A DNA stretch of 64,000 bases. Source: Phoronis australis. Taxonomy: Eukaryota; Animalia; Phoronida. The notes below the pieces were generated by a model. The model did not search any database. It had not been told where the DNA came from and saw only the letters and a program-made list of their open reading frames with translations. The stretch spans positions 717,873-781,872 of the forward strand of contig NMRA01000066.1 in NCBI GenBank assembly GCA_002633005.1. Direction: 5' to 3'. Shown in pieces: positions 11,917-61,719 of this stretch; within the stretch, counting starts at the first letter, position 1, and each line of letters starts with the position of its first letter. The translations under genes and the position numbers were made by a program.

Positions 11917-13971
11917 TGACCTATCGCAAGCTCTGCCCCTATGCGAAAAGTCACGTGATACCCGACATTCGAACGAGATGTCAGAGGCAAATACACTGTC
12001 ACTAAACGACGCTCCTGGTGGAATCGATGAGTGTTTTTTCACTATTTGAAAACGCTTTGACAGAGACAAGAGGCGATGCTTTTCAACAGAGAATTGTACG
12101 TTCATGATATGGAAATTTGTAAAGGTGACGATGAAAACATGGCTCGAGGAGCCAGCGAAATTCCGAAGAACCCCTCTGCCTCGGGGCCACCTTCACCTAC
12201 CAAATGACAAAGCCACTGATACGATATGTTCATGTAAAGCTGAGTATGTACCTTCAAGTCGAATTATCTGTACGATTCCATAGATTTCATGATCTTTCTA
12301 ATAAAATCAGTAAAGATTCACCGATATTTTTATTCTGTCGTCTGCTAAATTTCGCCAAATAATTAAAAGTAGGTCACAACTGGTGGGACTCTCGGAGTAA
12401 GTAGGTCATAGATTACAGACAACACATGCACTATAGTCTTTGACTAGGTCGACTCCACAGCACTGTTTACGCTTTTCTAGTCTTGTAACGAAATATTTTG
12501 ATAAAAAAAATTCAGGTTCATAGCTCATGCTCACATTCATCTCATCCTAGGCAAACAGTTAGCTCCGGCGGGTTAATTAGGTCTAGGGCTGTGTCTAAGT
12601 CAGTGAAGTTAATGTCTGGAACTCAGTGGCGGATCTAGGATACCACAAGGGGGGTCCAACATGTTGTCTCGTGGAATTGGGCAAAGTGCAATTGTATGTA
12701 CACAGGCGGCCCGAAAGTTGCAGGGACCTGGGATGCAGACCTTTGGACCTTCTGTTCAGAAAATTTATCGGTGGACTAAAAAAAAAAAACAGGAACACGA
12801 TTCCGCCGCGATCTGGGGTCTGAGCCCCCCTCTTCCGCTACCGGTCCTAGTTACTGAACTCAATATTTCCTCACGCTACACGCTCTTGCTGTTTCATTTT
12901 GCTTGCGGGGGGGCTGGGGCCCCTGCCCCCACCCCCTAAATCCGCCTATGGTCCGTTTGCACCATTAAGACGTTTAAATTAGGCCTGCCTTCTTACTAAC
13001 TTGGCATTTTTTGTAGTTTCATTCCATAAAGGTAACTTTCATTTAATTTTGAAGGTAGCATAATTACTAAGTCGTGGTATGGTTACAACTTGAAAGATTA
13101 CAAGTCTGGTGTGGTAGTTGCAAATAGGGTATTTACAAAAATAACTCAAATTCTGTTTTAAAGCTTCATAAATCTAAATATCATGTCTGAACAACTTCAA
13201 AATGAGCTCTGTCTAACTCTACAGACATAGTGTATACTAGAGGTACACGTCAAAAAGTAATTTTACAGTTTATGTTTATAGTGACAACAGCTTGACCAAG
13301 GCTTTGAGTTACTGGCAGCAATCCAGTGCCCCTCCCTGCATGTGCAGATCGAATCTCTGAATTTTGACCGAGAGAGAAGTTCAGCTGAACGCCAGCCTAC
13401 GGGTTTATGAATAACAAAAACGTACCTCTTTTAGGTTGAAATAAATAAAAAAATAAAAAAATGTCCTTGAAAACAACAATTACCGGGGACTATACCGCAG
13501 GTGTCGAGACAAAGGCGGCCAGACGTAGGAAACTCGGGAGTCACAATCTGAGATAGCCCTTCACCATATAGCCACCAAGCTGAAAAGTGCGCATCTTGGA
13601 ACTGATATATTTGTGTTTATAATAGCCTTCCAGTTATCAAGCAACATCGCTAAGTTCAGTTGCTCGTGTAGCCGTACAGTTTGATCCATAGTTTACGCTG
13701 AAATCAGTTTTCGGCTTAGGACATGCCAAAAAATGACGGGATATTATTCTGGAGCAGCATAAGGGCTGTCGGTGCTACACACGCCATATCAACACCGTTT
13801 CCCCATTCTTAGCGGACAATTTCTTGAGCTATAGACTAAAGTAAGTTTTACTCGACTACGTGAGGTTTGTCGGGTATAATGGCGGCTTGGAAACGCAGAC
13901 GAAGGTGTGCCAAGAATGCTTTGTTCTGATTGGTCAATTAAGCCGTCCGTCATAATCCTGGCGATAGGTCA
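11917..13971 (+). mobile_element. 2.05-kb non-autonomous AT-TSD TIR element, copy 1
   Basis: TIR tgacctatcgc / gcgataggtca with AT TSD in a palindromic gagaATtctc target. A full-length inverted copy lies at 38699-40715. Confidence 0.9.
12625..12949 (+). mobile_element. hAT-like MITE nested in the 2-kb element
   Basis: Ends cagtggcggatctagg ... cctaaatccgcctatg. The second copy (about 39705-40017) is flanked by a 5-bp AATTC duplication. Confidence 0.7.
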
Positions 13972-14082
13972 ATTCTCCTCGCGGTGTTGCTGCTGTACTA
14001 GTGGTGATTGTATTGAGCATGCGTCGCTGTCTGCATGTAAACAGCTGGTAAAAACACAGTCATCAAAATACGGCGTACCGCA

Positions 14083-30001: not shown

Positions 30002-33000
30002 ATAATTGTAAAGTGAACGAAGGACAGGTGTCAGTGCAGAACGTCTCTTGTTGTGCGCTGTCTAGTAATCTAAACTAGTCAGGAGCTTGATAGAAACAAA
30101 GCTGGTCTCACAAAGTGGGCATTTATTTTGTGCTTTAAAACATGAATGCTAATAATTCTACAGTTGGTGTACATTTTCCTCTCCAAGTCGAGTATCAGTT
30201 CATGGTTTACACCATCAAAGATCAGCTTTGAGTGATAAGAGGCAAATCTTCCAAAAATTAAAGTCGATTTTAAACTCCTATTCAACTTGCCGATGCAATG
30301 GTTAAAAAAGTCTGTCTAAGAAGGAAAATTATTCACAATACTGAGTGGATAAGGTAATCGAAACCCGCATTTGTCACCAGATTACACCTATGGAAAACTT
30401 TGTTTCCACCAGGAGGTGCTTCTTTTTGACAACTGAAATACATTGAAAGCGGAAAGCAGTTGACAAATATGAGGTCGTTCCTGTAATAAGGTACTGTAGG
30501 CATATGTAAATCAGACCCTGTTTTTAATAAATGCCATGACCGGTCGAGGCTGCACATTTCATTGGCTTTTTGAAAGACAACATTTGCGATGGTGTTAAGG
30601 AATGACGCAGATAAAAGTACGATTTCTATGTCTCTGGTGGCATTATTTTGGGTAAATCTAAGTATTTGCTGTCGCGACAGTTTTTATGACATTGTATTGA
30701 TGACCACGCTATAAACACGCCACATCAAATCTGCATGTCAAAACCGCTACCTACATGTACTCGCACATGTAGTATGGTATGAATGAAATTATTTACTAGC
30801 TGTAACTACAAGTCTGTAAAAAGGAAATTAGTGATTGGAAAAACAGAAAAGTTCTACGTCGTCAAAATCGATGGTAACCCCTCTCAAGCTCCTTTTCCCT
30901 AGCTTTACATAGTCGCAAATTCCAACATTCCGGTCGTTGGCGATTTACCCCGCGCCACGATAACCCAAGGCATTCTAACCCTGTAAATTAGTGGGAGTCA
31001 CCGTTTATCGTTTTTTTACGGTCATGCGGTGAGACCAGCTTAAAAATTAATTTTATTCCAAAACAGATTCCCCTTTAGTTATCAGTCACCTAAATTTGTA
31101 ATGTTCGAATTTCCCTGATACTCTCCACATATCCCCATGCATTCAAGCGAGGCACGTGATCACATTAGCATTACACGTGTCCCGCACCTACAGAAAGTTC
31201 CGTACACCTGGTAGAGCTCAGTGGCTCTCAGGCAGCTGGGAAAATCTAGCGAAAGTCACGTGTTCACATTTAAAACACATGTACGCGGTAATATCAGGCG
31301 TACTCTCACAAACTCTTGCTTTTTAGCGGGGTCCTAGCAAGGTCTTAGCGTTATTGAACTCTTCCCTGGCTGTTCCTTGACGCCACGTGCAATACGTTAT
31401 TCCACCAAACGACGGATGCGTTCGATGCAGTTGCTGCAACCTTTGCGTAACGTTTTCGCAGCCTTTCTCTCATCATTGTAAACGATTACTTCTATGGCAA
31501 ATTCATGCGTCTTTTATTAAACCTTCTTGTCCCAATATTTTGAGTGTCCGACCCGACAACATCCTTAAGTTTCGTCCCATACTCTTTTGTACAACCTCTC
31601 TCCATTTTGTACCGGCACATTTCTAGCACCAAACCTAATCCATCCTCGCTGTTGATCACCTTTGCTTCGAGATAAATGACTGTATAGCTCAGAATACATG
31701 TTACTAATTAACATTTTTGTGTTGGTTCACAGTTATTTGGTCTCGTGACTGTCATATGGATCCTCCACAATTGGAGATGCTCTTATGAAAACTTTCCCCT
31801 TGTTATTATTCGCATTTTAAAAATGTGATGCTGATATTGTATATCATTGTAAATGCTCCATGTAGTTGTTTGTATCATGCTGGTTTATGCATACACCTAG
31901 TGAGCTTGGTGTGATCCTGATCTTACAGTACTATACAAATCAGTCTCTTTTTATGCAGCGGCTGTTGTGTAACAACATTTGGTAGCTGTCATGTGTTCTA
32001 CTCCCATTTTCACTGAACCGTAAGGTCCGATATAGTAGTATGTATATCGATTGCTAAAAGTGATCTAGTAATTGATTATTAGTTATCTTATGTTTGAAAA
32101 CGTTTTTCTGTTATTGAACTTGACAAGATTCAGATGTACTCAATCCAGTTTAATGTCACTAGTATGAATGGGTGCTGTACGTTCACAAAGGGTGTGCAAT
32201 TGTTGTTACTGAAATGTTGAAAATGAATTGATGTTTCATTACTGTGTCCTTTATACAACGGTCGTCGCCGAAAACACCTTCAGAAATGTACTGTTAATAT
32301 AATGATAACAAACAGTACAAAAGAAAGCCGTAAGAATCTTTAAATTTACACTGGTTTCTTTTGTACTGTTTTTTCAATTTAAAAATTGAAATCTAAAGAA
32401 AGGCGCGAATCTATTGTCACAATGAAAATGCGTGCGTATTTTCACATAATTGCCTATATTGTATATCAGGTGTGCAAAAAGGTTAGCTACTTTTTAACAA
32501 GTAATTGACCAACAGAATTCGTTCAAATTTTTCAAAATGTATTTTCAGGGTGTCATCAACAAGTCTGGAGAGTGCTGTATCTCAGAGAATAATAAAAAGG
32601 TATGGAAGTACTGTGAAACTCAAAACAAATGAATTGGGTGAAAAATGCAATATCAGTGTCACTTTCATCGTGTTCATACTGGTTCCGACGGGTCAAGAAG
32701 TAAGGACATTTGGGGTAGCGTTCCGTAGACTGAGGCTCCTGCCAGAAAAGCAAGATGGAAAGAACTCGCAAAATCACGCGAGGGATAAGCAAGTGCTGTT
32801 CAAGGAAGTACTAATTTCCCACTGGCAGGCGACTGATGCAAGACTTAGCATCATTTTAATTTGAAAATGAAAGTCAAACACCAAGTTCAAGCAGAAAGCA
32901 AATGTTTTATTGCCATTTGATCATTAGACAGCTGGAACCTCGTTGGAAATCAATGATAACTACAGCTGCAGCACTGAACTTTGAACCATTTCCACCTGAA

Positions 33001-33759
33001 GACCGGTGGTTTTATCGGCTTGTTGTAGAGGCGGTGGCAGCGGACGCGAACTCGAACTGCCTTAGTCACCGTTCTGCATGTGCCGAATTTGTATCGGGTG
33101 CAATAGGCAAGGCAACGACGTCTGAAACATAAATTAAAGGCTCGGTAGGGCGATTCACAGACTAGGGAGCGTCACTCGAGTGTGGATGCTTGCTAGGAGA
33201 TCACGTGCTTCGCGTGTAATGAATGCCGTTTTCCCGCGAAGACTTGCCAATCAAAATACTAACCTTACTGAACGGACCCTAGACAACACTAAAATACAAA
33301 AAATCGAGGCACATCTCTGGAAACAACGTTTTCTAGTAATTATCTGTAACTATAGAGCTGGTTTTATCGTTTCATTACCGAGAAATGTGTAAAAAGTCAA
33401 ACCAAAAGATGAATATCAAATAGAAAATGGGTTGAACTGCAACGCTTTGACACCATACGTAATCAGATGATATCTTAAAACATAAGATTACGCAAAACAA
33501 CTAGCATAATTAATTCTGGTCAGCACGTTCCAACCATATTTCTCAAGGAAAAGTCAATTGATTGCTAGCTGAAAAGAATTTGGTTGATTCTTTTTTCAAT
33601 CCAGCGTCATCTGATAACAGCTGAAATCAGTCGAGCTTCTTTTTATCAAGTGTTACTGGGTTTTCGCTGTGTAACGCAAATTTCAAAATGAGTCGGACGC
33701 AGACCAAAACCTTCCATTTACTATATTTTTGACCGTATATGTACTAGTTGTTATTTTTC

Positions 33760-34155
33760 TTACCCCGTATATCGGCATCTGGTCGTCAGCAACACGTTTG
33801 GAGAAGAGATGTAGCATTGGCTGTAACCTGAAGAGGCTGAATAGGGGCCATTCCGAAATCGGCGTACCACTGTGAAGCAATTGTTGCAGAAATCATGTTT
33901 AAGTCGTCGAGGACCACGTTTACTCTCGTCAACCTCCTCTTCGGTGCCATCGTATTGGCCTTCATCGTTAGCCTTCTCCACTCCTTTCTCGACCTCCAGC
34001 GTTTCATCGTCATCCACAGGCTCGTCTACTCCTCTTTCAACCTCCAACATTTCTCTCTCATCGTCTGCTACTTGCGGTGCTTCCTCTGGTTGAATTTCCA
34101 TGTCGTCTGCGTGCACGTGAACTACCAGCAGCAGACCCACAGAGAGCAGCAGCCA
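33760..34155 (-). CDS. Exon 2 of a secreted prepropeptide (toxin/antimicrobial-peptide-like architecture)
   Basis: Phase-0 acceptor tactttacttccag|TGG. Reads WLLLSVGLLLVVHVHA, then an acidic pro-region ending DESKR, then GPRRLKHDFCNNCFTVVRRFRNGPYSASSGYSQCYISSPNVLLTTRCRYTG*. Confidence 0.9.
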   Translation of the reverse strand, partial: WLLLSVGLLLVVHVHADDMEIQPEEAPQVADDEREMLEVERGVDEPVDDDETLEVEKGVEKANDEGQYDGTEEEVDESKRGPRRLKHDFCNNCFTVVRRFRNGPYSASSGYSQCYISSPNVLLTTRCRYTG

Positions 34156-34670
34156 CTGGAAGTAAAGTACATCACGGTCAAAAACAACTTTGGAAAACCT
34201 CTGTTTTGGTTCATTTTTCTGGCGGTACACTCTTTAATCAGCCGAGTATGCTTCCTTGTTACAAAAAATGAATGCATCATAAATTATGTCAACGGGATTT
34301 ATTGCAGTTTGTGTTTTGCGATTTTGGCTTCACCTAATTACACATGTAGCACTGTTTCGATACAAGCCATTATAAAACCCCATATTTTCAAATGCATGCT
34401 ATGATTAGAAAAACTGATGCAAACTTTTTCAAAAGAAATTATTAAACATCAAACTGTGATTTGTCTGCTGTAAAACACTGTCTTAACCGTGGCGCCAAAA
34501 TAAATTCAACCGATGTACAAGAATGCAAAGCGACTGAGATTAAAATGTTAACCATTCATGCAACTAACGAAGTGTAATGCCGACCAAAAAGTCACATAAA
34601 TTTCTAGTTACTTGCAAAAACGTTACTTTGAGAAACAAAAAAAACCTACTTTTTGTGCTTTCGCACTTAC

Positions 34671-34682
34671 CATATGTTTCAT
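34671..34682 (-). CDS. Exon 1 coding part (MKHM) of the prepropeptide gene
   Basis: ttcgccATGAAACATATG|gtaagt gives a good Kozak context and consensus donor. The phase-0 join yields the 20-aa signal peptide MKHMWLLLSVGLLLVVHVHA and a 135-aa precursor. Confidence 0.85.
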
Positions 34683-34770
34683 GGCGAATTTGTGGAAAGA
34701 TGGAGCGTCAATTCGTAAACTGTTGTGTTGCTCTGAGTAGAAGATTTGGGCAAAGTGATAAAGTGTTGGT

Positions 34771-34779
34771 ATTTATATA
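34771..34779 (-). promoter_or_regulatory. TATA box of the prepropeptide gene
   Basis: TATATAAAT on minus, about 90 bp upstream of the ATG. Confidence 0.65.
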
Positions 34780-37700
34780 ATTTTCATGCGACATAAGCAT
34801 GACGTAAACAAATGACCCACATCTTTAAGGGCATCTCAAATCTGCCACAGCAATAAATTTACAGGCACAATAAATGTAATTTCACTCGACTGCCATTATA
34901 CATGTACTTTAACATGATGGATTTTTACTGTAAATTTTAACGCAAATAGAATTCCCATTGCCTTTAATCTTAATGCGTTCTTGACAACATGTGTAATTTA
35001 AATAGACAAGATCAGTTTTACGAACGAAAACCTGGAAATATTTGGGTTATTGTTGGACGGGAAAGACTTCATGAAATTATTGTTTTCTGACCAGAGCTAC
35101 AAAACAAAAAGCTTCGGTGTATTTTCGTGTTCGCCAATCCCACAGCTTTCTGCAAGACATTCGCTGAAGTCAAGGGCCCCAGTTAAATTAGCTTCCCATA
35201 CGGGAAACCTATCAGGAGATCTCATACAGTAGATGTCGGTAGATAAGCGTCTCCAAAGTTCTTTTTTTATAATAAAGATAAAAACAAGCATTAATGGTAA
35301 CCACCTGACGTACAAAATACAAGACACGAGAATAAAGTAATCTACCATTCATCACGTGATACTGGAATCCAACAGTGTTTAAGTACGCCCGCTGAGGGCC
35401 TGTATTCGATGTCACGTTTTGACTGGTCTCGTAAAATCACGTTTCTCATCGACATTGTCACTTTAACGTGCTAAAAAGTTTGTTCTTTTCATCATACTCA
35501 TTCAGGTGTAAAAATTGAACATTCATACATTGATCGTGTAGCATAAAAAATTTTGAGGTGCAATTTAAATCGTTAATGTGCTTTGCCTGGTAGCAACCGA
35601 TTTTTATGACTTTAATGTTAGCGTCCCCTGTCAGGTGAATGAAAAATGCCACAGAAAACTGTTATCCAAAAAATACTTGTTCATGTCGTTCGTACTTCAA
35701 TTTGAAAAGCAATCCACAAAATGAGCAAACAGGTAATTTAACAAATCTTGCATCTTAAAACATTTCTTTGTTCATACGGTTTTTTAATATTAATTTTATT
35801 TTTCATTTTAAAATTTATTTTATCTGTGAAATTGAAGTCTCCGTCTCAACGTGAACTGTGCTACATTACAGACAGGGATGAAAGTCCTCACTTCATGTGG
35901 TCATACCAATAATCAAAAAGCATCAAATACATTTTAATTTGTGCCCAATCGGAATATCTCGAATACTTCCGTAGCATCAACTCGGCGATGTCTCAGGGGT
36001 GTACCAGATGAGTCGAGTGTACTGCATCCTCTCAAAACCTGCAAATGTGCACGTATTTTGATTCAACGTCTCTGAGACGACGACTCTCCCTCATTACCAT
36101 GACAATTTAACTGGAAATTGTCACGTTTTCACGATTAGGAGGTCGACAAGAGGGTCGTCGGGATTTAAATGTTGCTTGATAGAAAATCTGGTGGAGAACG
36201 CGCGTTTAAAAAATGCTTAGTTCCCTATGTAACTAGACCCGGCTGTTAGTTTGATATTTTCCTGTTAGGCAGTAAAAATTATTATTTATTAACAAGGACA
36301 TAATAATCGGTTGTGTTTGCTTTCTGCGTGATAGCGTTAAAGTACATGAACACCAAAATTAGAAAAATGCTGTAGAAATCTTGAGAAATGATGTTAAAGA
36401 TATCAGTTTTAAATGTTCACGGTGATGCATTTCTTTTGATTGCAAACGATCTTAACGCTGTAACTGGTAACACTTTCCATTACATTCAAAACGACTCATC
36501 AGTTTTTACCCTTAGATGACTGGTGTGATTCAGATACAAGTAACTATAACTTGTCATCTGAAGGCGAAGTAAAGATAATGAATGATAAAAATTAGTTTAA
36601 AAATCACAGTCACAAATGTGTTGCGAGATCAACGTTTAGGTATGTAACAGTAGTGCTTCAGACGAAGCAGATGAGTTCTACTCTTCGTCTAATGATGCGT
36701 GAAGGTCGTGCTGTGGATTATCTTCTATCGTCATCTGATTCATTTGATTTTGTGTGAGACTTTAACGTGGAACGTGCAAGCTAATTTTCGCATTGCTGGG
36801 TAAAATAAGTTACTAGAAACAAAACACATAGCGACAATGTGAATATGAAGTAGGTTGAAAATTGCCAAAGGTTTTAAGAACGAGTTTTGTGTCGAAAATC
36901 ATCCGTTGTAAATCATTCAATCGTATTCAGTAAGTGTCGTGACGCGGTGTTGGGAAATAAAAGCACAGTGATGTGGGTTATGTAAGCCCCCAAGGTACAT
37001 GTACGTCATTAGTGCAAAGGTCACCTATTTGCAGATTTTTTGTTTTCACATTTACACGTTGTCAATGAAGAGAACTGCTCTTTGTGTAGGGTAGATGATA
37101 TTCAAACAGCAGTGTCGTTTATATAGTTCTTGTTATATACATGTATTAGCATAGTTGCAAATATGCATACATTTGGCAGTTTCGTAGTAAGATGATTATA
37201 TTGATAATAGGGCAAATTATGATACGCATGAATATGATTAGGCTATTAAATGCAAGGCTGAAAAGCGCGTTCAATACTTATCAACAAGTTAGGCGAATGA
37301 TAATATAATTTAACAAAAATGGATGGTTAGAATATTTTGAAAAAGAATGGCAAATCTTCACAACCATATTCTAGCACAATATTTAGTATACGATATACGC
37401 AGGTTTCGTGTGTGCGTGTGCGTGAAACGTATGAATATGTCTCAGTCAGCTCTAGATGTACTAGTTACGATCGGTGATACATGTACATTTATATAATGAC
37501 TTGTTTCCGTTGTGTAATCACTTACTGTGCTAGGACTTGTTTATAAACGCATGTATTTACGCATGCGTAGGGGAAAGTTGCATGCTATACATGCGGATTA
37601 TCCTCGTGCCTATGGCAACATTTCGTATAATGCTCTGTCAACTAATTTACAAAAACTGGAATTCAAGTATTGATGAAAAACATGAATTTGAGGAACAGAA

Positions 37701-38399: not shown

Positions 38400-40960
38400 T
38401 CTTGAAATCTTTGTTAAACGGGTATGCCCAATGGTTATGGCAAAAAGGTTTGGACATTTAAAGGATATTCTAGAATCGAGTGTGTGCAATTGGAATTCTG
38501 AAAGCAGCAGTTGAGAGTTGGAAATAACTGTTCAAATCATGTTGTCTTGGGAAAACTGGGATGATATCCAATTCATGTCAAATTGGTTGTTAAACTGTTA
38601 TGGCTTTGGATTGGAATGGTACAATCTGGGAAATGGCTGCGAATTTTTTTAGCAGCAAATTAATTTTTTTTTTGCCAGACTTGAACTTTGCTGGGAATTG
38701 ACCTATCGCCAGGATTATGACGGACGGCTTAAGTGACCAATCAGAATGCAGCGTTTCCAAACCGCCATTTCACCCGACAAACCACACGCAGTCGAGTAAA
38801 ACTTATGTTAGTCTATAGCTCAAGAAATTGTCCGCTAAGAATGGGGAAACGGTGTTGATATGGCGTGTGTAGAACCGACAGCCCTTATGCTGCTCCAGAA
38901 TAATATCCCGAAAAATGATGTTGAAAGCGTTAACTATGGATCAAACTGTACGGCCACACGAACAGCTAAACTTAGCTTGATAACTCGAAGGCTATTATAA
39001 ACACAAATATATTACTTCCAAGATCCGCATTTTTCAGCTTGGTAGCTATGGTGCAGGGCTATCTCAGATTTTGACTCCCGAGTTGACTACGTCTAGCAGC
39101 CTTTGTCTCGGCACCTGCTGGATCTCAGCAATCTAGCGGTAGTCCCCAGAAATTGTTGTTTTCAAGGACATTTTATTTTATGTTTTTCTTATTTATTTCA
39201 ACCTAATGGACATTATTTTGTTTCGTGTCAGGGGTGCATTTTTGTTATTCATAAACCGTAAGCTGGCGTTCAACTGAACTTCTCTCCCGCGGTCAAAGTT
39301 CAGAGATTCGATCGGAGCAGGGAAGGGCACTGGATTACTGCCGGATCTCAAAGCCTTGGTTGAACTGTTGTCACTAAAAACAAACTGTTGAATTACTTCT
39401 TGACGTGTACCTCTAGTATACACTATTTCTGTAGAGTTATAGAGAGCTCATTTTGAAGTTGTTCAAACATGATATTTAGATTTATGAAGCTTTAAAAAAG
39501 AATTTGAATTATTTTTGTAAATACCCTATTTTTGCAACTACCACACCAGACTTGTAATCTTTTGTAACCATACCACGACTTAGTGATCATGCTACCTTCA
39601 AAATTAAATAAAAGCTACCTTTATGGAATGAAACTATAAAAAATGCCAAGTTAATAAGAAGGCAGGCCTAATATAAACGTCTTAATGGTGCAAACGGACA
39701 ATTCCATAGGCGGATTTAGGGGGGGGGGGGAGGNCCCTTGGTTGCCGCAAGCAAAATGAAACAGCAAGAGCGTGAGGAAATATTAAGTTCAGTAACTAGG
39801 ACCGGTAGCGGAAGAGGGGGGCTCAGACCCCAGATCGCGGGAGAATCGTGTTCCTGATTTTTTAGTCCACCGATAGATTTTCTGAACAGAAGGTCCAACG
39901 GTCTACATCCCTGGCCCCTGCAACTTTCGGGCCGCCTGTGCACATACAATAACACTTTGCCCAATTCCACGAGGCAACATATGTTGGCCCCCCTGTGGTA
40001 CCCTAGATCCGCCACTGAATTCCAGGCATTAATTTTACTTAGACACCGACAGCCCTAGACCTACAGGAGCTAACTGTTTGGGCAGGACGAGATGAGTATG
40101 TACCTGAGCTATGAACCTGAATTTTTTTATCAAAATATTTCGTTACAAGATTAGAAAAGCGTAAACAGTGCTATCGAGTCGACCTAGTCAGACACTATAG
40201 TGCATGTGTTGTCTGTAGTCTATGACCTACTTGACTCCAGGAGTCCAACCAGTTGTGACTTACTTTTCATTTGGCGAAATTTAGCAGACGACAGAAGAAA
40301 AATATCGGTGAATCTTCCCTGATTTTATTCGAAAGATCATGAAATCTATGGAATCGTACAGATAATTCGACTTTAAGGTACATACCCAGCTTTACATAAA
40401 CATATCGTATCAGTAGCCTTGTCATTTGTCAGGTGAAGGTGGCCCCGAGGCCGAGGGATTCTTCGGATTTTCGCTGGTTCCTCGAGCACTTATTTTTTCA
40501 TCGTCACCTTTACAAATTCCCATATCATGAACGTACGATTCACTGTTGAAAGGCACCGCTTCTTGTCTCTGTCGACGCGTTTTCAAATAGTACAAAAACA
40601 CTCATCGATTCCACTAGGAACGTCGTTTAGCGACAGTGTATTTGCCTCTGTCATCTTGTTCGAATGTCGGATATCACGTGACTTTTCGCATAGGGGCGGA
40701 GCTTGCGATAGGTCAATTTTGAGCTCAGAACCCAGTGCTGACTCCTGAAATTGATTGTAGAAATGGAATCCTATTTGTTGCTTGCATATTTTTGTGTCAG
40801 CTAGGACTAAATTACGTTGCTCTCATAACTTAATGATAGAGAAAGTTTGACCTACCCCTGAAGATCGGTGGTATCTTGTGTGCTGTCTCTGTAAGTCGCA
40901 TATTGAGTATGGATACCCTGATTTTGTTTGTGTTCGAACTGCAGTGTCAGAGCAACATTT
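38400..40960 (+). mobile_element. Degenerate CR1/L2-type LINE 3' ORF2 fragment interrupted by the 2-kb TIR element
   Basis: After 40716 the plus strand reads MESYL...RTKLRCSHNLMIEK...LVC.LC, resembling the KLRxSxHxLxIE plus CxxC C-terminal motif. Heavily decayed; left boundary approximate. Confidence 0.45.
38699..40715 (-). mobile_element. 2.02-kb non-autonomous AT-TSD TIR element, copy 2 (inverted)
   Basis: gggaAT|tgacctatcgcc ... gcgataggtca|ATttt. Collinear reverse complement of 11917-13971, including the nested MITE. Confidence 0.9.
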
Positions 40961-49484: not shown

Positions 49485-49940
49485 TTAAGACACTTTGTAA
49501 GCTTCGCCAGCAACCCAGTAGCCAGAATATCCCAAGCTTGCAGGAAAACCAAATTCAGAAAGTGAAGGACATTGTGTCAGCGTAGGCAAGAGCACTGGCG
49601 ATGAGTTAGATGCAGTCTTGCTGGTTCCGGTGGAGCTACCCGGCGTGTGCCACAAGTCGTTGTCCTGTACAGTCACTTGTAGTGCAATATGCGGAAATAG
49701 TAAATACAAATGCATCTTGATCATTTGCTACATCCTCGGACCAGTTTTTATTGATGTATACACCATATAAATTGTCGTCGTCACCGCCTACTAAAACAAG
49801 TAGTGTGTGATTTATTCCTTCGAAACCGTCTTCTACATTGCTTACCCTCACAGACATGTTAAAGTCTAAGTTGAAGTGCTTGTCAGGGAGCCATTCCCGT
49901 ATCTTATCCAAAAGTTCCGCAGTCAATAAGCCATTTAGAG
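49485..49940 (-). pseudogene. TLDc-domain-like exon with a frameshift
   Basis: Acceptor cttcag|, then LNGLLTAELLDKIREWLPDKHFNLDFN...HTLLVLVGGDDDNLYGVYINKNW...DQDAFVFTI, ending in another frame with ...GEAYKVS*. This follows the TLDc motif order. A phase-compatible upstream exon may lie at about 50034-50125. Confidence 0.55.
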
Positions 49941-52900
49941 CTGAAGACGAGACAAGAGGAGTGTAAGCTGAAATGATAAAACTCGCTATGTATTCAAAAA
50001 TGTATATATTTCCTCATAGAAAGTTTTTGCATACGGCTGATGCATTCCTCAGTGCCCAACAGGTTGTGTGGCGCATGGTACGGTTCTTTGTCACCACACT
50101 CATCACGTTTGAAGGCATAGTGCTGTTGGTGGATCCAGACAGATTACCATACTATCCTCTTGATATATACATGTACGTTATGTGTGTTATTATATCTAGA
50201 TACGTGGTATGCAAGCCAATTTAAACTCGGGCGAAGAATCTATCATACAAATCGAGTGAAGTATTTTAAGACGCGCATTTAAACAAATCTTCGTTGACGT
50301 CACATATCCGGTTAACAGCACAGCGCCACCTGAAGTTTTTCTCACTTGTGCGATGTTTGGCAAAAAATAACTTAAAAACAAATTTGACTTATGAATGTAA
50401 TTTTCTTTAATAAACTAAGGAACATAAATAGGTTGTTTCGGCCATGCCTAAAATTCATTTTCCCCTTTCTACGAGGGCTTTAATACAGCACGGCTAGGAC
50501 CCGGAGATTATGATTTCCGTGTTTGGCGTAGTAATATGTTTACTATAGCAACACCTCATCCATAGCCAGTTGGCAAAATGAAGTCGCAGGATCGTTTAGC
50601 TTTAGCTGTTTTCGCCTAGATTTTCACCAAGTTTGTTGAACTTTAAATTTTAGACGGTATATGACGGTATTATGATTTGTGCTACAGTATATTTGGTTCA
50701 GTTGTCATTTGTCAGGTGTTTTTCAATTATTGAATATAGTGGCACTAACGCCAGTAGGTGAAACATGAATCAATAACAACTCGAGGTACAACAACTACCG
50801 AAATTTTTATGTTCTTAGCCCACCAAATACCGTAATCTTTACAGCTTTCCCAGGGTTATTTTCTCTAGAGATGATAACGGTTACCTTATCTAGAGAAAAT
50901 ACCGAAAAGTGGTTTTGGCGTATTTCAATAAGTGATAACATACCTGTGTATGATAAAACTAGATCCCTCATAAATGATATCAGCCGATCACATGATTATC
51001 TGTAACTGCATGGTCAGTAATTACACAATTGTTTACGTCATTTGTGATTTTTGGGAGGGAGAATCTGATGTTTAAAAACGGAATTAGGAATTTGTCTGAA
51101 ACCGTAAATGAACAAAATAGATACGGGAACCCCATGCAGTTACCGATGAATAAGAATATGAAACAGAAAGTAAACGGCCAGCGTCCATACTAAAATATAT
51201 CAAAATATTCCCTACGTTTCTGCTGCTTGTTGTGTATCACTGTCGTACTTTATTTACATATTTCTATTCTGTTCTGTGAAGTATCCAATAAATATATATC
51301 ACCTTACAATTCGCAACGCCACCTGATAAGCACTGAGGAAGGTAGGTATGTCGAAATGTTTTGTGGAGTAACTAAGCAATTCCTAGATAGAAAAATAATT
51401 TCATCATGTAAGTTATACTTTACCAACATAGTGGAATCGTTTATATAGGTAAGAGCGTGGAATCGGAACTTGCAGGCCCGCAGTCTCAGTCAAACTCTCT
51501 GCTGGCGTAGCTAAACCACAGTTAATCTATGGGAAAATATAGCACCCCTATTAGACTGGTAAAATTACCCGCCTTGTCTTCAGTGAGTAACTGGCAGAAT
51601 TGGCAATCTGTAATAAAAACACCAAAACAAAACGGATGTAACTGTCATTCCACGAGAATACCAATAGGTCGACTCTAGGGCCACCGACTCAGATCTTGAA
51701 AAAATTGTGTGTTCTGTACATCCTGGTGGGATATGTTCAAAATGCTTATTTGAAAATTTTGGGCCATTATTTTTAAGTTAGAGCATCCCGATTATTTTGG
51801 CCCAAAATAGCTCACTTTTTGGTTCAAACGGTTCATTCGATGAAGTTGTTTTAAAACGGCTTCAAGTAACGGGAAAGAAAAAAATATTTACACTGCTCAT
51901 GCAGAACTTGAAGCTCTCTATCAGAAGACAGTCTTTGACTTTTCAAAGGGGTTTCTGCTAACCTTCAATGATGTGTCAAATTTCGGGAAATCTTGTCACA
52001 TTTTGTCTTGGATTTTTAGCCATTTCTGAGGTGCTCTGAGGCCAGTTTTCGCGGTGTTGGTGATTTCTAATGATATTTTTCATCTGACTAAGAAAATTAA
52101 AAATACAAACATGGGCTTCTTTTGTGGTGCCTGTACATGTAGCTACATGTATATCTCATTAACCTCATGAAGGGGCTTCATTAATTTTTGCAAATAAGTT
52201 TCTATGGTGATCAAATCAGTCGACGTCAACTTTTAGATAACGACATATTTAATAAATCCAAAGTACATGTAAACTTAGTCTGAGAAAAAAGAAAATAAGA
52301 GAGCAGTCTATGGCTGCCACTTTAGCAAATACACACGATCATTGCAATAGATTCCCGTCAAATGTCCCGTCACACACACAAAATTTTTAGTCTTGAGATA
52401 ACATTACCCTCGAGTTGTGTGAAAGAGAAAGTTAGCCTTAGTAGTACATGTACATCCAACGCAGACCAAGTTGGATTCGTAATAAATCGTGATTTATACG
52501 CACAATACTGCCACCAACTCTCTTTAAAAGCGCCACTTATGACAAAAATTGCAACAACAGGGACCGCAACGTTTGCTCCGATTTATTGCAGTGGTCCGGT
52601 TTTTTTTAAATCAAGTAAACTGCACAGGCCATACACCCATCAAAGGTGCAAGATTCAAAAGGAGTCGGTGTGCAACTGTGCTTATACCAATGTACTATTT
52701 TGTCGTTTTAAGGCATGAATTCAGATTTTAACCGTTAAGGAATCTGTAAATTTACTGTCGACAGGTTAAAGGGGCTTTGATAAGTCATGAACCGATTCAG
52801 ACTGAGCAATGTCCAGCTATACGCAATCCGTGAGCACGTTCAACTCGCATTACATACAACTACAAGGCATTTGTGTGATTTAAGCTCAAAAGTGTTATTT

Positions 52901-53210: not shown

Positions 53211-53779
53211 GTGATGCGGCCAACAGGTGATGTGCATACCAGGCTTAAAATGTTTGCGATTCATATCTCCACGCTGGCTTAAAATTTACATATTCATATA
53301 CAATAGCCATATACACTTCGAATCATTAATAAAACCAATAAAATGTGCAAATTACAAATTTATCACGGATTTTTATAATCTGGCTTTATTTTGACCGCTT
53401 ATGACCGAGGTTCAATTAGCTTCATTGAAATGATAGCTTCAAAAAGCAGTCATGTTTGATAAAAGTGCCCAACTCATTTTTGATCACAACTCATCTCTCA
53501 AATATAAAGTTTTTAAGAATAGTTTTACACTCCTTGTTTTTCTGTCGCATTGTTAAACATTCACTACAGTTACTCCGCTCTTCCTCCGGTAAAGTATGAA
53601 TAGCGGATTTGCAGCGCAGACGAACTACGCATTGCGCATGTGCGAGTTACTTCCTTCGCGAAGGCTCATGGGATAGCTTGTGGTCAGGCATGTCTTGAGC
53701 AGGCTGGATAGTGTGTGCATTTGGAGTGATTTGCAAACTAAAAACCATGTTTCATTTTTTGCTTTATAATACCAAGCAA

Positions 53780-54995
53780 GGCCTCTCTCTCGTTTGTAAA
53801 CACAGCGTAGCTATGATCAGTGACCGTGTGACCGAGAGCACGACTGTCGCCGTGTTCAGTATTGGGGTTATCGGCGTTGATTTCGAAATCTCCTCCTATT
53901 TCAGACAAGTTGAGAGTTCTTGGGTTGCTTAACTTTTGTAGCTTTCGTCGTGGATATGCTAGAGACGTTAATTTTAAGTGGAAACTCCGTCGGAATGTTG
54001 TTCTCATAAGTCTTTTTTCCACCAGGAAAATGTTCGCTGCACACACGATGGCCCCTAGGCAATTACATCGCACTGGATGCCGCAGGCATTCAGGGGCGAT
54101 AGTACATCCTCACAAAAAGTTACTCATTTCAAAATACAGCAAATAAAATCAAATGAACCCGGCATACATATAGGAACACGGAGTTATAATTAACACATAC
54201 CACGACTCTGGATACAATTTAGTCAGCAAAACTTGAACGAATCGATGAAAATCTGTCGCGGTTTGTTCGAGTTTCTCTCAGTCACGGTTACCGGGTGCCA
54301 TTTTGAGGAAGTTACGTGAAATTACGCATGTTGACGAATAAAAAGTCCAAGGGACACACATCTTACAAGTTTCACCCGATACCTTCTCATGCTATTTTAC
54401 AAGTGTCGCGCGCTAGCGTCACGCGCTTCGCTCAGTCTAACCTTGCGCCTAACTCACGGGATTCAGTTGACATGCTTTGTAGTTATCGCGCACGCGGTGA
54501 TAAAATTAACGGCAACCAAAAAAGTGGAGTTGTAATTCTTCGCCAAAGTCAACTTAATTCTCACAACTAAGCTTCATTAAAGATATGTATAGAAGTAGAA
54601 AGGACCAATGATGAAAGTAAGCGTTTTTTAAATGATAGTTTTAAGTGTAGAGTGTATTTTTGACGAGGTGAAAACTCGAAATCGGTAACCCAAATCCGGT
54701 CACGGCCCGTTTAAAATACACTGGAGTAACGAAATGAGTACAGAAAGCGAATGGAAGTATTGTAGCCCCTACATGGCCAACCGAGGGGCTACGTGTTGCC
54801 TACTAGATGGCCCCGCGTTCGTTTGAATGCGCTAAATTTCCCCTTACTCCCAGGTCTCCTAATGTTGTTTATCCATTTTTCACAAAGTTCTTGGTTTGCA
54901 GGGAACACATACAAACTCAGATTTTTATCTCTCTTGTTGTTTTTGAAGCAGCCAGGAACACAAGTGTATTCGCCGTAAGTTTTCTTCGCGCTCAT
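53780..54995 (-). pseudogene. THAP domain split by a 750-bp insertion, followed by a DHSY motif
   Basis: Removing 54056-54805 plus one TSD copy gives in-frame MSAKKTYGEYTCVPGCFKNNKRDKNLSLYVFPANQELCEKWINNIRRPGSKGKFSAFKRTRGHRVCSEHFPGGKKTYENNIPTEFPLK. Downstream TDHSYA resembles the HCF-1-binding D/EHxY motif. Confidence 0.85.
54056..54805. mobile_element. 750-bp insertion with 9-bp TSD GATGGCCCC
   Basis: gatggcccc|taggcaattac ... gtgttgcctacta|gatggcccc, with short imperfect TIRs. Confidence 0.85.
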
Positions 54996-55118
54996 ACCGC
55001 GTTTTAAGCTTGTTACCATGGCCGCTTTCGGAATCCTGACCACAGCACCCACAATGCACCATTTTAACTAATTTCAATATGGCGTCGCTGCAAATCCGCT
55101 ATTGAACAAGAAGTTTAA

Positions 55119-55327
55119 CTACAGAGCCGGTGTGCCCTCTTTTGCCTCGTTAGCAAGACCGAACTGCTGTTGTGGGTACTGGTCGACCCCAGGGTACGTA
55201 GAGGGTGCGGCCTGCGGATTGTACAGGGGCTGTTGTTGATAACCTGCAAAATTTTGTCCTTGAAAACCGTATTGCTGCTGAGGGTAGCCCGTGGTCGCCG
55301 GCATGTAAGTCTGGTTAACTGCGGCAG
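55119..55327 (-). CDS. Last exon (P/Y/Q-rich cytoplasmic tail) of the CUB-like single-pass membrane protein
   Basis: Phase-1 acceptor atttcag|CT, then AAVNQTYMPATTGYPQQQYGFQ...EGTPAL*. Confidence 0.85.
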
Positions 55328-56385
55328 CTGAAATAAGATGGTTTTGTCAATGAGTGTGTTTGTACATCAAAGGAAACCGCTATCTGACACCTAATTTTAC
55401 TTTCATATCGGTATCATACCTGAGTTTTTATCACAACAACTATCTGTAACCAAAACATTCTACATCCAGGCTAGATCTAATCCAAAAAATTTAAATCTAA
55501 TTTTCACAGTCAACATGCGGACTTCCACCACCAGTTTCAATACACATCTCCTCAGTGGATTTAAATGTGGTCACCAAATTGACAGTTAAGCTCATTTTTT
55601 ATTCTATTGTCCCCTAAATGCGAATGAGCCTGCAACACTCATGCAGGCCTTTGGCAATAACAATGACATTTTAAACAATAGAGGAAGTTTCATTGTTAAA
55701 ACTGTTTTGTAAAATATGGATTCCAAGACAGTAACTGGTACATGTATCTAGATACAGTAGCAGTAGTCAGTTCAATTAAAAATCGCTCGATAATGAGAAC
55801 AATTGTATTTCATTCCAGCTATCCTTCTAATGTACATGTACAGGCTTTAATATTGTATCGAAAGGGTCATCTCGACGATGCTGCGCTGTCAATGCTAACC
55901 AATTGAAGCACTTTGTGGTTTTAAAAACATAACCAATCTCAAGCGGTCTCGAATATTTATAGTCGCCGAATGAGCCGGACACACAAGAAAGGTCAATGCG
56001 TACATGTATGCACGCCATATTCGAATTCGCAATTTTAGGGTCAGGTACACTGGAGCTAGAAGATGATGGTTTAGCTGCTCTTGTTGCTAAGGGCAACGGT
56101 AAGGAATATCAGTAAACCAGTTTTATGACCTTAAATGGCCATGCTTTGGAGTTGAAAGGAATTTTGAACTTTACGTGTTGCTACATTGTACATGGGTGTT
56201 TTGATCACTTTCGGGGCTTACACGGGTGCTTGTTACAGTCTGGCATTCAAATAAATATTTTAACAAGTTGCATTGTTATTTTGGCTGATGGTTCAATGGC
56301 ACCAGTCGAATAATGCCGGTCTTAGGGTTGAATCATGAATTCGTAAATGAGGCAGGTATTAAATACTTCGCTGTACAAATTTAAG

Positions 56386-56669
56386 CATGGGCGCACCTAG
56401 CTTAAAATAGGCAGGTCAAATTTTTGAGAATGTGAACCTTTTTCTAAACAAATAAAAAGAAAAATTAAACCTTTCGCTGAAAAAAAGAAAAAAGGAGGTA
56501 CGTTCAGAGCTATGAATTGTGCATTCGCTGAATTATCTTAGTTTCCGCCTCTTTTGTGGACTTTTGTCTCGTTTTCTACATTTTTGGACTTTTTGTTTCT
56601 CTGAGGCCGACCTTTTTGCCCACTTCGCCAAATGATCCCCTGAGCCCACCCCCTCTGAGTGCACACACG
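56386..56669. mobile_element. Diverged CATGCGCGCAC-family MITE, 5-bp TSD TTAAG
   Basis: ttaag|catgggcgcacctagc ... gagtgcacacacg|ttaag; shares the internal gacctttt(t)gcccacttc motif with the other copies. Confidence 0.7.
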
Positions 56670-57082
56670 TTAAGACAATTACATGCGACTTAAATTCTGC
56701 CAGATCTGCAAAGTTATGAATGTGTACCGTTGAACAAAACTTTAACATACTAACACAGTGCTCGAATAAACACAAAGTATACCACAATTACATGAATCTT
56801 TTTGAAACCTGTGCTTCTTTGTTTTAAAAAAGGCACCCATCACCATCATTTCTAGCAAAATAATCGATCTCTTTACTAAAGCCAAACAAACGAAAAAGTT
56901 TTGAAGGAAATATCGTTTCGGCTCATCCACAATCCTCTCCTGCTGACCTTAAATGATATGTTATGACAGCTACCTAAATTGAATCAAAACCGTTGCTTCC
57001 CCTTGGTGTGTTTTTGTTATAAATGAACAACGGGATATATTGCATCATCGCACATAGGCAGGAAATATTAGTAAACATAAAC

Positions 57083-57250
57083 CTGTTGTGGTGACTGTGG
57101 CTACGTTTGGTCCATGACGTCTGCTGCCACCAGAGGCCGCTGCTGCACAACAGCAGCAGCAAATGCAGATTGGAACGCCAATCAATAGTCCGAGACCGAT
57201 AAGTGCACCAATCACAATGCCGATGATTGCACCAGTAGAAATGTAGTCGT
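57083..57250 (-). CDS. Transmembrane plus poly-Cys exon of the CUB-like membrane protein
   Basis: Phase 1-1 exon: DDYISTGAIIGIVIGALIGLGLLIGVPICICCCCCAAAASGGSRRHGPNVATVTTT. Confidence 0.9.
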
Positions 57251-57472
57251 CTGAAATACAAGAAAGCGAGTTTCCAACAGTCAGAGAACGGCATTTACGC
57301 TTCGTAAGTCGTAAAATGAAAGCTACTCATTTTTGTTTCCTGCTAATGCACAATTGGCGTCTCATGTGAATGATAAAAGCAATATTAGATAAAGACACGG
57401 GGTCATTGTGCCACGAAATGAATGATCGATTCTGTTGAACAGTGACTACGTGTATTTAATTCAACTGCTCAC

Positions 57473-57611
57473 CGTAGTTAGTGACCTTCAAGTCTACGTT
57501 GAGCCCGTTCCTGCAAGTGGATGTAATACACAATGTCTTGTCGACTACGATGTAAACATAACGTTGAGTCGTGTAGTATGTCCAACCACTATTATATCTG
57601 TCCAGTTTTGC
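57473..57611 (-). CDS. Extracellular exon (C-terminal part of the CUB-like domain)
   Basis: ttttag| phase 0 to |gtgag phase 1: AKLDRYNSGWTYYTTQRYVYIVVDKTLCITSTCRNGLNVDLKVTNY. This is the only open frame. Confidence 0.85.
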
Positions 57612-58301
57612 CTAAAATGATAATGGTAAAAAATGATACGTTTCAAAAGATCCTCTGTAATTAGTCTGCATGTACAGTGTGTATGCTTTGTCTATGTACA
57701 TTAGTGCAGTGTAGTCTTTGTCAAAAAGAATAATAACAATTATGTTACTGGGGTGTCATCCTTTTGAAAGGTACATGTATGGTGTATGACCAGCTTCCAT
57801 TTGGTTTTGTTCAGTAGTTTGCGCCTTGAATAGTTCATTTGGATGAATGATAATGCCATCCATTTATGCAAAATGCATCACTCTGTCGCCGTTGATATTG
57901 ATGCTTTCAAAGTATCTGGCGGACTAAAAATACAATTAGCCGCAACCACAATATTCAGGTTACGTTCGCTATCTGTTTATATTAATTACCCTTTTTATTT
58001 TAAATTCTCAAAGTTAAACGTTCTTTTTTACATAAAAACCTCTTCAAAGTATAGAACTGTAGACCTGGAAAGCCAACTTCGATCTCCCGCTGCTGAGGTA
58101 GCGCCGTGCATGGGTGGGATTTTTTTGCATTCGATTGTTGAGTCTAACTATGGAATATAGGACTTGGGGTGAAGTGTTTGTTTATTTGAAACGCAGTAAG
58201 TTTAGAACTGTCACCATCGAAAACTTCTTCTGAACAAATTTAATCTATATTTTTGGAATATTTTGCGGTCTTAATTCCCCAAACATCGTCAAAAAGGATC
58301 A

Positions 58302-58717
58302 TCTATAATACTATACTAAAAGCGTGTACCTCAGACAAATAAAAACAAATATATATTTTATCGCTAGGCCAATGGGAAATGCCACTTTCTTTACGGTCAC
58401 TAAATTTTCTGCAGCTCCCCCAGTTTTTAACTGAATTGCATAAGAGTCATATCATTTGAAAGCCCACCTTCATGTAGTTAGTAAGATCCAAACTTTTCAT
58501 TTACAACTGCAAAACAAACACTCAAAAACAAAACCAAATGTCACATTTTTCCGTAAAATATTGTAACATGATTTCAACACCGCAAAGTGTCTTGTTGAAA
58601 AGACTCTTAACATGCAATAAATTCATAGGTTGTCGGAAGTGGCTCCAAGACAGTAGCTGAAAACATATTAGAGGCTAGAATATTGCCAGCATCCAGCCAG
58701 GACCACAGGTAGGCTCG
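58302..58717 (+). mobile_element. Possible non-autonomous Helitron in an intron
   Basis: A|TCTATAATACTATACTAAAAG start and a GC-rich 3' end finishing CTCG|T (degenerate CTAG), inserted between A and T. Confidence 0.4.
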
Positions 58718-59290
58718 TATAAATATTGGCCAATGAAATTATCGGGTTTGTTGACTCCGTCAAAACGCCACCTTTGTGCTACACCTAGACATCCGTTTGT
58801 AGGCATAAGTGACCGTGGCTTGATATGCACATTTATTGTATGCATACATTGGTACAGGAATGAGCCGGAAAGGTGTTAGTGAATCATTTGGTATTTTTGT
58901 TGTAATCGTGTAAGTGCCAAAAACACGAACGTGAATGGAATGCATCGGGGTATAGACTGTGATTCTGGTTGCAGCAACCGCAATCCACAAAGGAATATTT
59001 TTCAATAGATGGAACAACAATAATACGGATTTTTTCAACATCAAGCAATCAGAATGTTTGATTGTTTTTTTCCAAGGAATCGGAATGCCCGAAATTCAGT
59101 TATGCTTTCGATCCTATCGAAAATTACAAAACTATACCTTTAAAGTATTTGCTCTAATTTCAGCATACATGTATATGTACATGTACGCCGAAATTAGAGC
59201 AAATGCATTTATTCTATATATTTGTTAAGCAATGCTTTATTTGTCCTGAAGTTGGGATATCTATTAGAACCTATAACATGAGGTTCTTAC

Positions 59291-59394
59291 CAGTGAACTG
59301 GAATAGGAATAGGACCCATCGCGAATTTCAACATGTATGTTGCTATTGTCGAATATAGCTGTCTCAACTTCAACTTTCAATTTGTTCCCGTATT
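59291..59394 (-). CDS. Extracellular exon (CUB-like core)
   Basis: tttttcag|AA phase 1 to |gtaag phase 0: YGNKLKVEVETAIFDNSNIHVEIRDGSYSYSSSL. VEIRDG is typical of CUB domains. The 5' exons were not found. Confidence 0.85.
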
Positions 59395-61719
59395 CTGAAA
59401 AAGTGAGCAAGGCGACAAACGTGATAGATCAACTTTGCGAGCAAAATAAACGTATACAAGCATTTGTCACAGATTTGACAACCCCTTCTGACGCCGCCTC
59501 GGGATACGCAAATTCTTAAAGTGTATTTTTGTTGAACCAGAAGACATTTTTGGATAAATACAATGCTTATTGCTGCAACTGAAAGATTTGAGTAGATTCT
59601 AAACCAGGTTTTAGATTACTAACAGGTATACAATTCGACGAGAGCGTGGTTGCATGGAACCGTCACAAATATAGAAATTCAACTAAGTGTATTTCTGTGA
59701 ATAATTAAAACTTTAGAACAAAATGGTGACCAGCCTCCCATCCAGTAACGCGAGGACCTCACTAAAAAGCAAGACTTCGCGAGATTACGTGAGATATTGA
59801 CGTGTATTTTAAATGAGAACACGTGACTTTGACTAGATTTTAGCTAGGTCCTATCGTAGGTCCTAGCGTCTACTGAACGCACGCCAGGACACACGACAGG
59901 CGTGACTAACGTTTATTCGAGGTAGTTGACAGTTGTGGCAACACAGATCACAGACAACATATTCCAAACTCTGCTATTTCACTGTGATATTTCCAGAGGA
60001 GGCGCTACACTCTACCATTGTACTTCCGTTTAGTGAGCAGACGGCGCAAACGCCAGAATTGAGCCGTGTAATCACACTAGAGGCTGCAAGTGAAATGTGA
60101 CGTTGCGGCTAATAGCGAATAGAGAAGATTTTTGGTTGTGGCTTTTGACCAAAAATCACCAATGTTATTATGCATTGAGAATATTCAGAGTTGGCGGTCC
60201 AATTCCTTACTGTGAGGTAGCAGTGGAAATGTTTCATCTCTATATTCGTCTTTCGTGGAGATTCTACTGGTAATTGTGAAATAGCACGGTATAGAGTTTG
60301 TTTTAAGAAAAATCACAAACGAAGGTAAAAGCATCTCTTTATATTTAAACCATGGATAGAATGCAGTACCTGCGTACAGTTTTATGGCACACATATTGCT
60401 TGTAGATATACTGTAAGTATGTGCTCTTCCCATGTAGACGTGTACCGTCTCCCAGTCCGAAACTTTTTCGCTGCTCGCCGTAACGACGCACTCTATGGAG
60501 GCATCGAGGTCGTCTGGAAAATAACCATTAAATGTAGGCGTTGTGCTGCACACGAACATGTGTTGGCGGCTGCTGGGAAGCCAAGGAGTAAATTAAGATG
60601 ATACATAATTTTACCGTCAAACCTAAACAAACCACTAATGAATTAAATCGGTAAAAGTGTGTATTTTCTTTAATATAAAGCTTGTAGAAAGCCTGACTCA
60701 TAAGTGACAACGGTACTATGTAAAAAAACGCATTCAGGCGGTCACCAGGTGGGTGGCGAAGTCGGCTCCAGCCCACCAAGAATTGCTGAAGAACAATTTC
60801 ACGAGTCTCTTCAAAATAGCTTGACCATTAAAAATATTTACGAATAGGGGAACCAACAGAAATGAATGAAGCTTTGTTATCAAAAGTCAAAATGCGCTAC
60901 GCATGCGCAATACTTACAGCTGGTTGCACGCACTGCAGTAGTCAGCGACATAATAACGGCGAATGCAAGATTCTTCATGGCGAATAACAGATGTGTTCTG
61001 GCGATGTCGTAAGTGCTGTTCAGTTGAGGTTGTTCTGAAAAATGTTTTAAATTTGGTTAATTATTTACATGTGTATGTCTTAGAAATGATGACATCATCA
61101 GGACATCAAGAAGTACAACTAGAAGACGTGTATAAGAAAGTACATTTACACACAATGTGCAGAACCAGGTTAACTTCACACTACATGTACATAAAAGTTA
61201 TACGCCGTATGGCAACAACGACGTTGCATTATCAGGCGTCACGTTGTTTTTGTTGAGCACTGCACCTGACGTTCACCCTAGACTTCTATTGTCAGTCGAC
61301 AAGGTACAACAGTGTTATCGCACGACTCCTGTGCTTATCGTTTAACCTTTGGTCGGAAATCTCGGTTTTTAACCTATCCCAAACGAGCTGAAAAAATGAC
61401 ACTTTTCATAGATGGTTCGACTTAAATCCCCCAAGTGTACATTGAAATCACGATGTGTTCAGCATTCCCAAGGTCAAGCGGTTAAGCAGAAAGTTCTGCA
61501 AAAGTGTACTTAATACGAATCTACAGCGACTCCGCAACATGACCGACGTTTTTATCTCGTTCACTGAAGGATATCTAGCACATTGCCACTTTGTCAAAGC
61601 TGGGAAACCGCTCCGTAGACACACGACACTCGGGAGAGAGGATAGTGTGATCACGTGATTTGATGGTAATGCTTGTTGATACATATCTCAGTCACTCTTG
61701 TAGTGAAGTCTTTAAGCGT

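What the first reader, a model, noticed from the sequence alone, without database searches (positions are those of the whole stretch)
33760..34780. Complete, unassigned prepro-peptide gene with toxin/AMP architecture
Seen: TATA box, Kozak ATG, a 12-nt first coding exon and clean splice sites give an intact 135-aa precursor. It has a 20-aa signal, a 64-aa highly acidic pro-region with an internal duplication (EMLEVERGVDE / ETLEVEKGVEK) ending in KR, and a 51-aa mature peptide with 8 Arg/Lys against 1 Asp, Cys spacing C-X2-C-X20-C-X12-C and a C-terminal Gly. Established: signal + acidic pro + dibasic site + cationic disulfide peptide is the layout of many invertebrate toxins and antimicrobial peptides, and a terminal Gly is an amidation signal. 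Inference: I do not recognise this Cys framework, so it may be a new bioactive peptide family. The ORF track mis-starts it and hides the signal peptide.
Basis: partly seen in the sequence, partly recalled or inferred. Interest (0 to 1): 0.85.

Follow-up and report, generated by a model that had tools for sequence, protein, structure and literature searches.

The report
Orphan cationic cystine-knot precursor gene
This strongly expressed three-exon gene, likely from an invertebrate animal, encodes a predicted secreted precursor whose acidic pro-piece offsets the charge of a basic 107-residue, eleven-cysteine protein that is predicted to fold like a growth-factor cystine knot and likely acts as a defence molecule, and it matched no named family in the searches run.

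The parts
34772..34779 (-). TATA-like box
   Evidence: Sequence; main read 5' ends at 34725-34732; function not tested
34671..34732 (-). Exon 1: 5' UTR and first 4 codons (CDS 34682-34671)
   Evidence: Read depth and 5' end pile-ups; translation
34156..34670 (-). Intron 1, 515 nt, GT-AG, phase 0
   Evidence: 1345 junction reads in X2, 314 in X3
34108..34155 (-). Exon 2: residues 5-20 of the predicted signal peptide
   Evidence: Hydropathy; cleavage after VHA inferred from the -3/-1 rule
33916..34107 (-). Exon 2: 64-aa acidic pro-piece ending in KR (KR at 33921-33916), net charge -22
   Evidence: cleavage at KR inferred
33973..34053 (-). Imperfect 11-residue duplication in the pro-piece, 48-nt offset
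   Evidence: 7 of 11 residues alike
33764..33915 (-). Exon 2: mature residues 1-50 and two bases of Gly51; Cys 10, 13, 34, 47
   Evidence: reads
33122..33763 (-).
   Evidence: 659 junction reads in X2, 164 in X3
32950..33121 (-). Exon 3 CDS: mature residues 52-107 with Cys 54, 58, 66, 79, 101, 102, 104; stop TGA 32952-32950
   Evidence: depth 598-663 in X2; predicted long beta-hairpin
32888..32949 (-). Short 3' UTR with AATAAA at 32911-32906
   Evidence: read depth falls to background below about 32888

Best explanation
The gene is transcribed and spliced from three exons into a 191-residue precursor whose 107-residue, eleven-cysteine basic domain is predicted to fold as a growth-factor-type cystine knot, is likely released by cleavage at KR from an acidic pro-piece that likely neutralises it, and likely acts outside the cell as a cationic defence effector. 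Shown: exon structure, expression, composition, charge balance, several related transcript types. Inferred: signal cleavage after residue 20; convertase cleavage at KR; knot bonds C10 or C13-C66, C47-C102, C54-C104, an extra finger-tip bond C34-C79, and a covalent dimer through the odd Cys (C101, next to Cys V, as in Spaetzle); binding of the Arg/aromatic-rich fingers to anionic microbial surfaces. My odds: gene model 0.97, growth-factor knot about 0.6, direct effector rather than receptor ligand about 2 to 1.
Confidence: 0.4

Rival explanations
1. The mature domain is an elongated macin-like CS-alpha-beta antimicrobial protein: C54xxxC58 on a helix bonded to C102xC104, G-x-C66 bonded to C47, C34-C79 as the macin C1-C7 bond, with a much longer sheet and an N-terminal CxxC helix added.
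For: All eight macin positions of the reference array (PMC5116183, passages) can be filled in order, with equal 12-residue arms; 8 of 100000 shuffles do so. CxxxC, GxC and CxC are present. Helix 2-19 is predicted. The acidic pro-piece and cationic product suit an antimicrobial peptide.
Against: 35 residues lie between GxC and CxC; the pattern with a 3-16 residue hairpin (range recalled) is not matched. The exon-3 model has no helix at CxxxC, though confidence there is low (pLDDT 57). Its strand ranges place C66 opposite C104, the knot register, and not opposite C102 (inferred from the DSSP ranges only).
Confidence: 0.25
2. It is a cystine-knot cytokine or growth factor (Spaetzle, neurotrophin, Trunk or IL-17 side of the superfamily) that signals through a receptor; the positive charge binds heparan sulfate or an acidic receptor surface.
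For: Same fold evidence as the best explanation. Signal, pro-domain, furin-type site and knot is the layout of neurotrophins and of Spz2/Spz5 (PMC2772990; PMC9427763). Invertebrate IL-17-type knots are very divergent and can be multi-copy (PMC11087794; PMC4517768).
Against: Net charge +22 in 107 residues with an exactly opposite pro-piece, hundreds of reads per million and mostly residue-changing variants are more typical of effectors (general knowledge). Family motifs match only in relaxed form.
Confidence: 0.2
3. It is a structural or adhesive secreted protein (mucus, glue, egg coat, skeleton or a coagulogen-like clot former) whose removal of the acidic pro-piece triggers assembly, on either scaffold or on an undescribed one.
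For: High, sample-restricted expression; odd Cys number; Arg, Val, Tyr and Phe-rich strands. Coagulogen as a knot protein recruited for clotting is recalled, not from a call.
Against: No repeats or low-complexity blocks in the mature part; nothing tested points to polymer formation.
Confidence: 0.1
4. The precursor is cut again at Gly51-Arg-Arg, which would release an amidated 50-residue peptide and a second 54-residue peptide.
For: G-R-R spans the exon 2/3 junction and is a canonical amidation and cleavage signal (established knowledge).
Against: Minor transcript types have G-Q-R or G-Q-H at this place (46 reads in X2, 12 in X3, and the X1 contig, tables 5 and 5c). The second peptide would start on a Cys and carry 7 Cys.
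Confidence: 0.05

Closest known systems
Spaetzle / neurotrophin cystine knots (Spz C-106 domain, crustacean Spz7/8, sea-urchin NT2)
   Same: Signal + pro-domain + basic site + about 105-residue Cys domain; extra Cys beside Cys V; 11-residue III-IV gap; extra Cys between III-IV and IV-V as in Spz7. The I-II gap of 36 and II-III gap of 6 agree with Drosophila Spaetzle by recall, not from a call.
   Different: No Pfam hit for either half; strict neurotrophin motif not met; 11 Cys; net charge +22; short acidic pro-piece; N-terminal segment predicted helical.
Invertebrate IL-17 (T1A type) / Trunk / PTTH / Noggin-like
   Same: P-x-x-L-x-x-x-R-C before the putative Cys II, C-terminal CxC, Cys in finger 2; IL-25, IL-17A and BMP-7/Noggin entries among weak fold rows.
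   Different: Strict motifs 1 and 2 not met; long acidic pro-piece; extra CxxC at the N-terminus.
PDGF/VEGF
   Different: The ring glycine of CxGxC is Ala here, and Thr in the X1 contig (loose end); pattern not met.
Macins (hydramacin, theromacin) and the CS-alpha-beta superfamily
   Same: CxxxC, GxC, CxC and a C1-C7-type pair in the right order; cationic.
   Different: Hairpin of 35 residues; 33-residue N-terminal extension with CxxC; 64-residue acidic pro-piece.
Prepro antimicrobial peptides with anionic pro-pieces (centrocins, strongylocins)
   Same: Anionic pro-piece in front of a cationic product.
   Different: Their pro-pieces are 15-30 residues; here 64 residues and a 107-residue product with another Cys frame.

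Membership tests
Growth-factor cystine knot superfamily | Six Cys spaced for I-IV, II-V, III-VI with terminal CxC | tested here: met
   Pattern matched; 1067 of 100000 shuffles, 63 with the extra Cys before V; ranges partly recalled and chosen after seeing the sequence
Growth-factor cystine knot superfamily | Two beta-hairpin fingers | tested here: inconclusive
   Finger 2 predicted with weak hits; the first half alone was predicted as helix plus strands; whole domain not folded
Growth-factor cystine knot superfamily | Bond I-IV penetrates the ring | not testable with these tools
   Needs a whole-domain model or disulfide mapping
Neurotrophins (NGF family) | [quoted passage not shown] | tested here: not met
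   Strict motif absent; gap length and first three positions met, which 6253 of 100000 shuffles also do
Spaetzle | Extra Cys adjacent to Cys V (covalent dimer) | tested here: met
   C101-C102-x-C104; feature from PMC2772990; the dimer itself is untested
Spaetzle | Profile match to the family | tested here: inconclusive
   No Pfam hit, but only the two halves were scanned, each alone
Spaetzle | Binds and activates a Toll receptor | not testable with these tools
   No receptor or genome available
IL-17 / Trunk | Motif 1 tail Pxx[IL]xEA[RK]C and motif 2 tail [VI][APT]V[GA]CTC (PMC4517768) | tested here: not met
   Strict forms absent; relaxed motif-1 tail present at 39-47
PDGF/VEGF, TGF-beta, glycoprotein hormones (eight-membered ring) | C-x-G-x-C ring motif | tested here: not met
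   Ala at the Gly position; Thr in the X1 contig
CS-alpha-beta / macins | CxxxC, GxC, CxC and C1-C7 pair in order | tested here: met
CS-alpha-beta / macins | Short hairpin between GxC and CxC | tested here: not met
   35 residues; 3-16 residue pattern (range recalled) fails
CS-alpha-beta / macins | Helix carrying CxxxC packed on the sheet | tested here: inconclusive
   No helix in a low-confidence stretch of a half-domain model
Prepro antimicrobial peptides or toxins | Signal, anionic pro-piece, dibasic site, cationic product | tested here: met
Prepro antimicrobial peptides or toxins | C-terminal amidation Gly | tested here: not met
   The Gly codon is split by intron 2 and the chain continues for 56 residues
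Prepro antimicrobial peptides or toxins | Antimicrobial or toxic activity | not testable with these tools
   Bench assay needed

The most novel reading that the evidence does not exclude
A lineage-restricted, fast-evolving gene family has recruited the growth-factor cystine knot (Spaetzle/neurotrophin/IL-17 side) as a direct-acting, +22 cationic antimicrobial dimer that is kept latent by a charge-matched acidic pro-piece: a cytokine scaffold turned into the weapon itself.
Probability: 0.3. Interest if true: 0.75.

Novelty: new variant of a known kind. Interest (0 to 1): 0.5.

Why it matters
If the knot reading holds, a signalling scaffold serves here as an abundant charge-masked effector, which links cytokine and antimicrobial-peptide evolution and offers a stable disulfide scaffold to test. 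If the macin reading holds, it would be a CS-alpha-beta protein with a far longer sheet than the usual range. Either way the gene is expressed, multi-copy and small enough to make and assay. It also shows how a splice donor can pass for a Gly-stop amidation signal.

Full report
Observation. The minus strand holds a TATA-like box at 34779-34772, an ATG at 34682, a four-codon first exon and a 515-nt GT-AG intron. Stranded RNA reads confirm this junction: 1345 in X2 and 314 in X3, none in X4.

766 reads of X2 and 207 of X3 left the genome at 33764, and their loose ends matched the window from 33121 downwards. Laid on a wider stretch, 659 and 164 reads join 33764 to 33121 across a 642-nt GT-AG intron. 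Depth past the supposed stop is 2 and 0 against 750 and 219 in the next bin. The 'Gly-stop' is thus a splice donor. Exon 3 adds 56 residues with 7 Cys. The precursor is 191 residues. The mature part after KR is 107 residues with Cys at 10, 13, 34, 47, 54, 58, 66, 79, 101, 102 and 104, 23 Arg/Lys against one acidic residue, and a computed charge of +22; the pro-piece has -22.

Expression and family. Reads at 95% identity or more number 3650 of 12.75 million in X2, 1076 of 11.31 million in X3 and 4 of 11.05 million in X4, or 286, 95 and 0.4 per million. The three runs belong to one study; tissue and condition are not given. Variant frequencies fall into classes near 45-60%, 10% and 3-4% in X2, and one X1 contig differs at 61 of about 400 and 23 of about 220 letters while keeping intron 2. 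I infer at least three further sequence types, some of them paralogues; alleles cannot be told apart without DNA of the same animal. Of 42 coding differences in the rows shown (40 of 74 rows, 40 of 204), none hits a Cys codon, and 18 of the 24 in the mature part change the residue, each scored alone. No row was shown for the first half of exon 3. The window holds no second copy.

Relatives. Pfam, PDB sequences, two word-based protein searches, a full HMMER search and three contig scans found no credible relative. A control with the neighbouring THAP exon was empty as well, so the lineage may simply be missing from the protein collection. Each half was searched alone, which lowers sensitivity. 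The taxon is not determined; GT-AG introns with antistasin-like, THAP, TLDc and CYYR1-like neighbours suggest an invertebrate animal.

Fold, against. The exon-2 half alone is predicted as helix 2-19 plus short strands (mean pLDDT 73) and its fold searches gave only generic matches. Strict neurotrophin, IL-17 and CxGxC motifs fail. The same Cys can be read as the eight macin positions of the CS-alpha-beta array (PMC5116183, passages), in 8 of 100000 shuffles, at the cost of a 35-residue hairpin. The whole domain was not folded, so the fold stays open: about 0.6 knot, 0.25 CS-alpha-beta-like, the rest other.

Mechanism. Shown: splicing, expression, composition, charge match, variant transcripts. 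Inferred: entry to the secretory path; shielding of the basic domain by the acidic pro-piece, as described for centrocins and strongylocins (PMC10608444, passage); convertase cleavage at KR; a disulfide-linked dimer through the odd Cys; action on anionic surfaces. High sample-restricted expression, extreme charge and mostly residue-changing variation favour a defence effector over a receptor ligand, but knot proteins of the Noggin/Trunk/PTTH group are ligands or antagonists (PMC9071555, passages), so that rival stays at 0.2.

Comparison and verdict. It works like a prepro antimicrobial peptide in layout and like a Spaetzle/neurotrophin/IL-17-type knot in predicted fold. It is not filed in any named family: the defining motifs tested were not met. 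Nine literature searches listed no description of this family. Unchecked earlier notes on other genomes report orphan knots in an oyster and in Trichoplax, which suggests that orphan knots are not rare in invertebrates and tempers the novelty of the fold. New variant of a known kind; interest 0.5.

Noticed in passing
window 8066-8266, minus strand: Cys-rich exon with an antistasin-family match (E 0.00017, 22.5 bits against cut-off 21.2); probably part of a small secreted protease inhibitor gene; a signal-like stretch lies near 9250-9330.
   Followed up: partly
window about 11900-13980 and 38690-40720: Two inverted copies of a roughly 2-kb element, 83-96% complementary in pieces, about 25 kb apart and flanking the gene; could be two repeat insertions or long terminal inverted repeats.
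   Followed up: no
window about 55100-60600, minus strand: Multi-exon membrane protein gene with a transmembrane exon, a poly-Cys tract and a Pro/Tyr/Gln-rich tail, CYYR1/Shisa-like (weak Pfam row, E 0.014).
   Followed up: no
window 53738-55067, minus strand: THAP-domain fragments (E 8.7e-08), probably a decayed transposon; no relative in the protein search.
   Followed up: partly
window 49636-50013, minus strand: TLDc-like ORF (E 0.00043, below cut-off).
   Followed up: no
window 1321-1777 and 10163-10367: Arrays of short palindromic units (about 20 and 21 bp period), MITE- or satellite-like.
   Followed up: no
window 34004-34057: 3 reads in X2 and 5 in X3 go back 54 bases inside the pro-piece repeat, which may mark a transcript type with an extra repeat copy.
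   Followed up: no
window 32468-32880 and 34183-34235: Short stretches covered on both strands by diverged reads in all raw-read runs, likely dispersed repeats in the 3' flank and intron 1.
   Followed up: no
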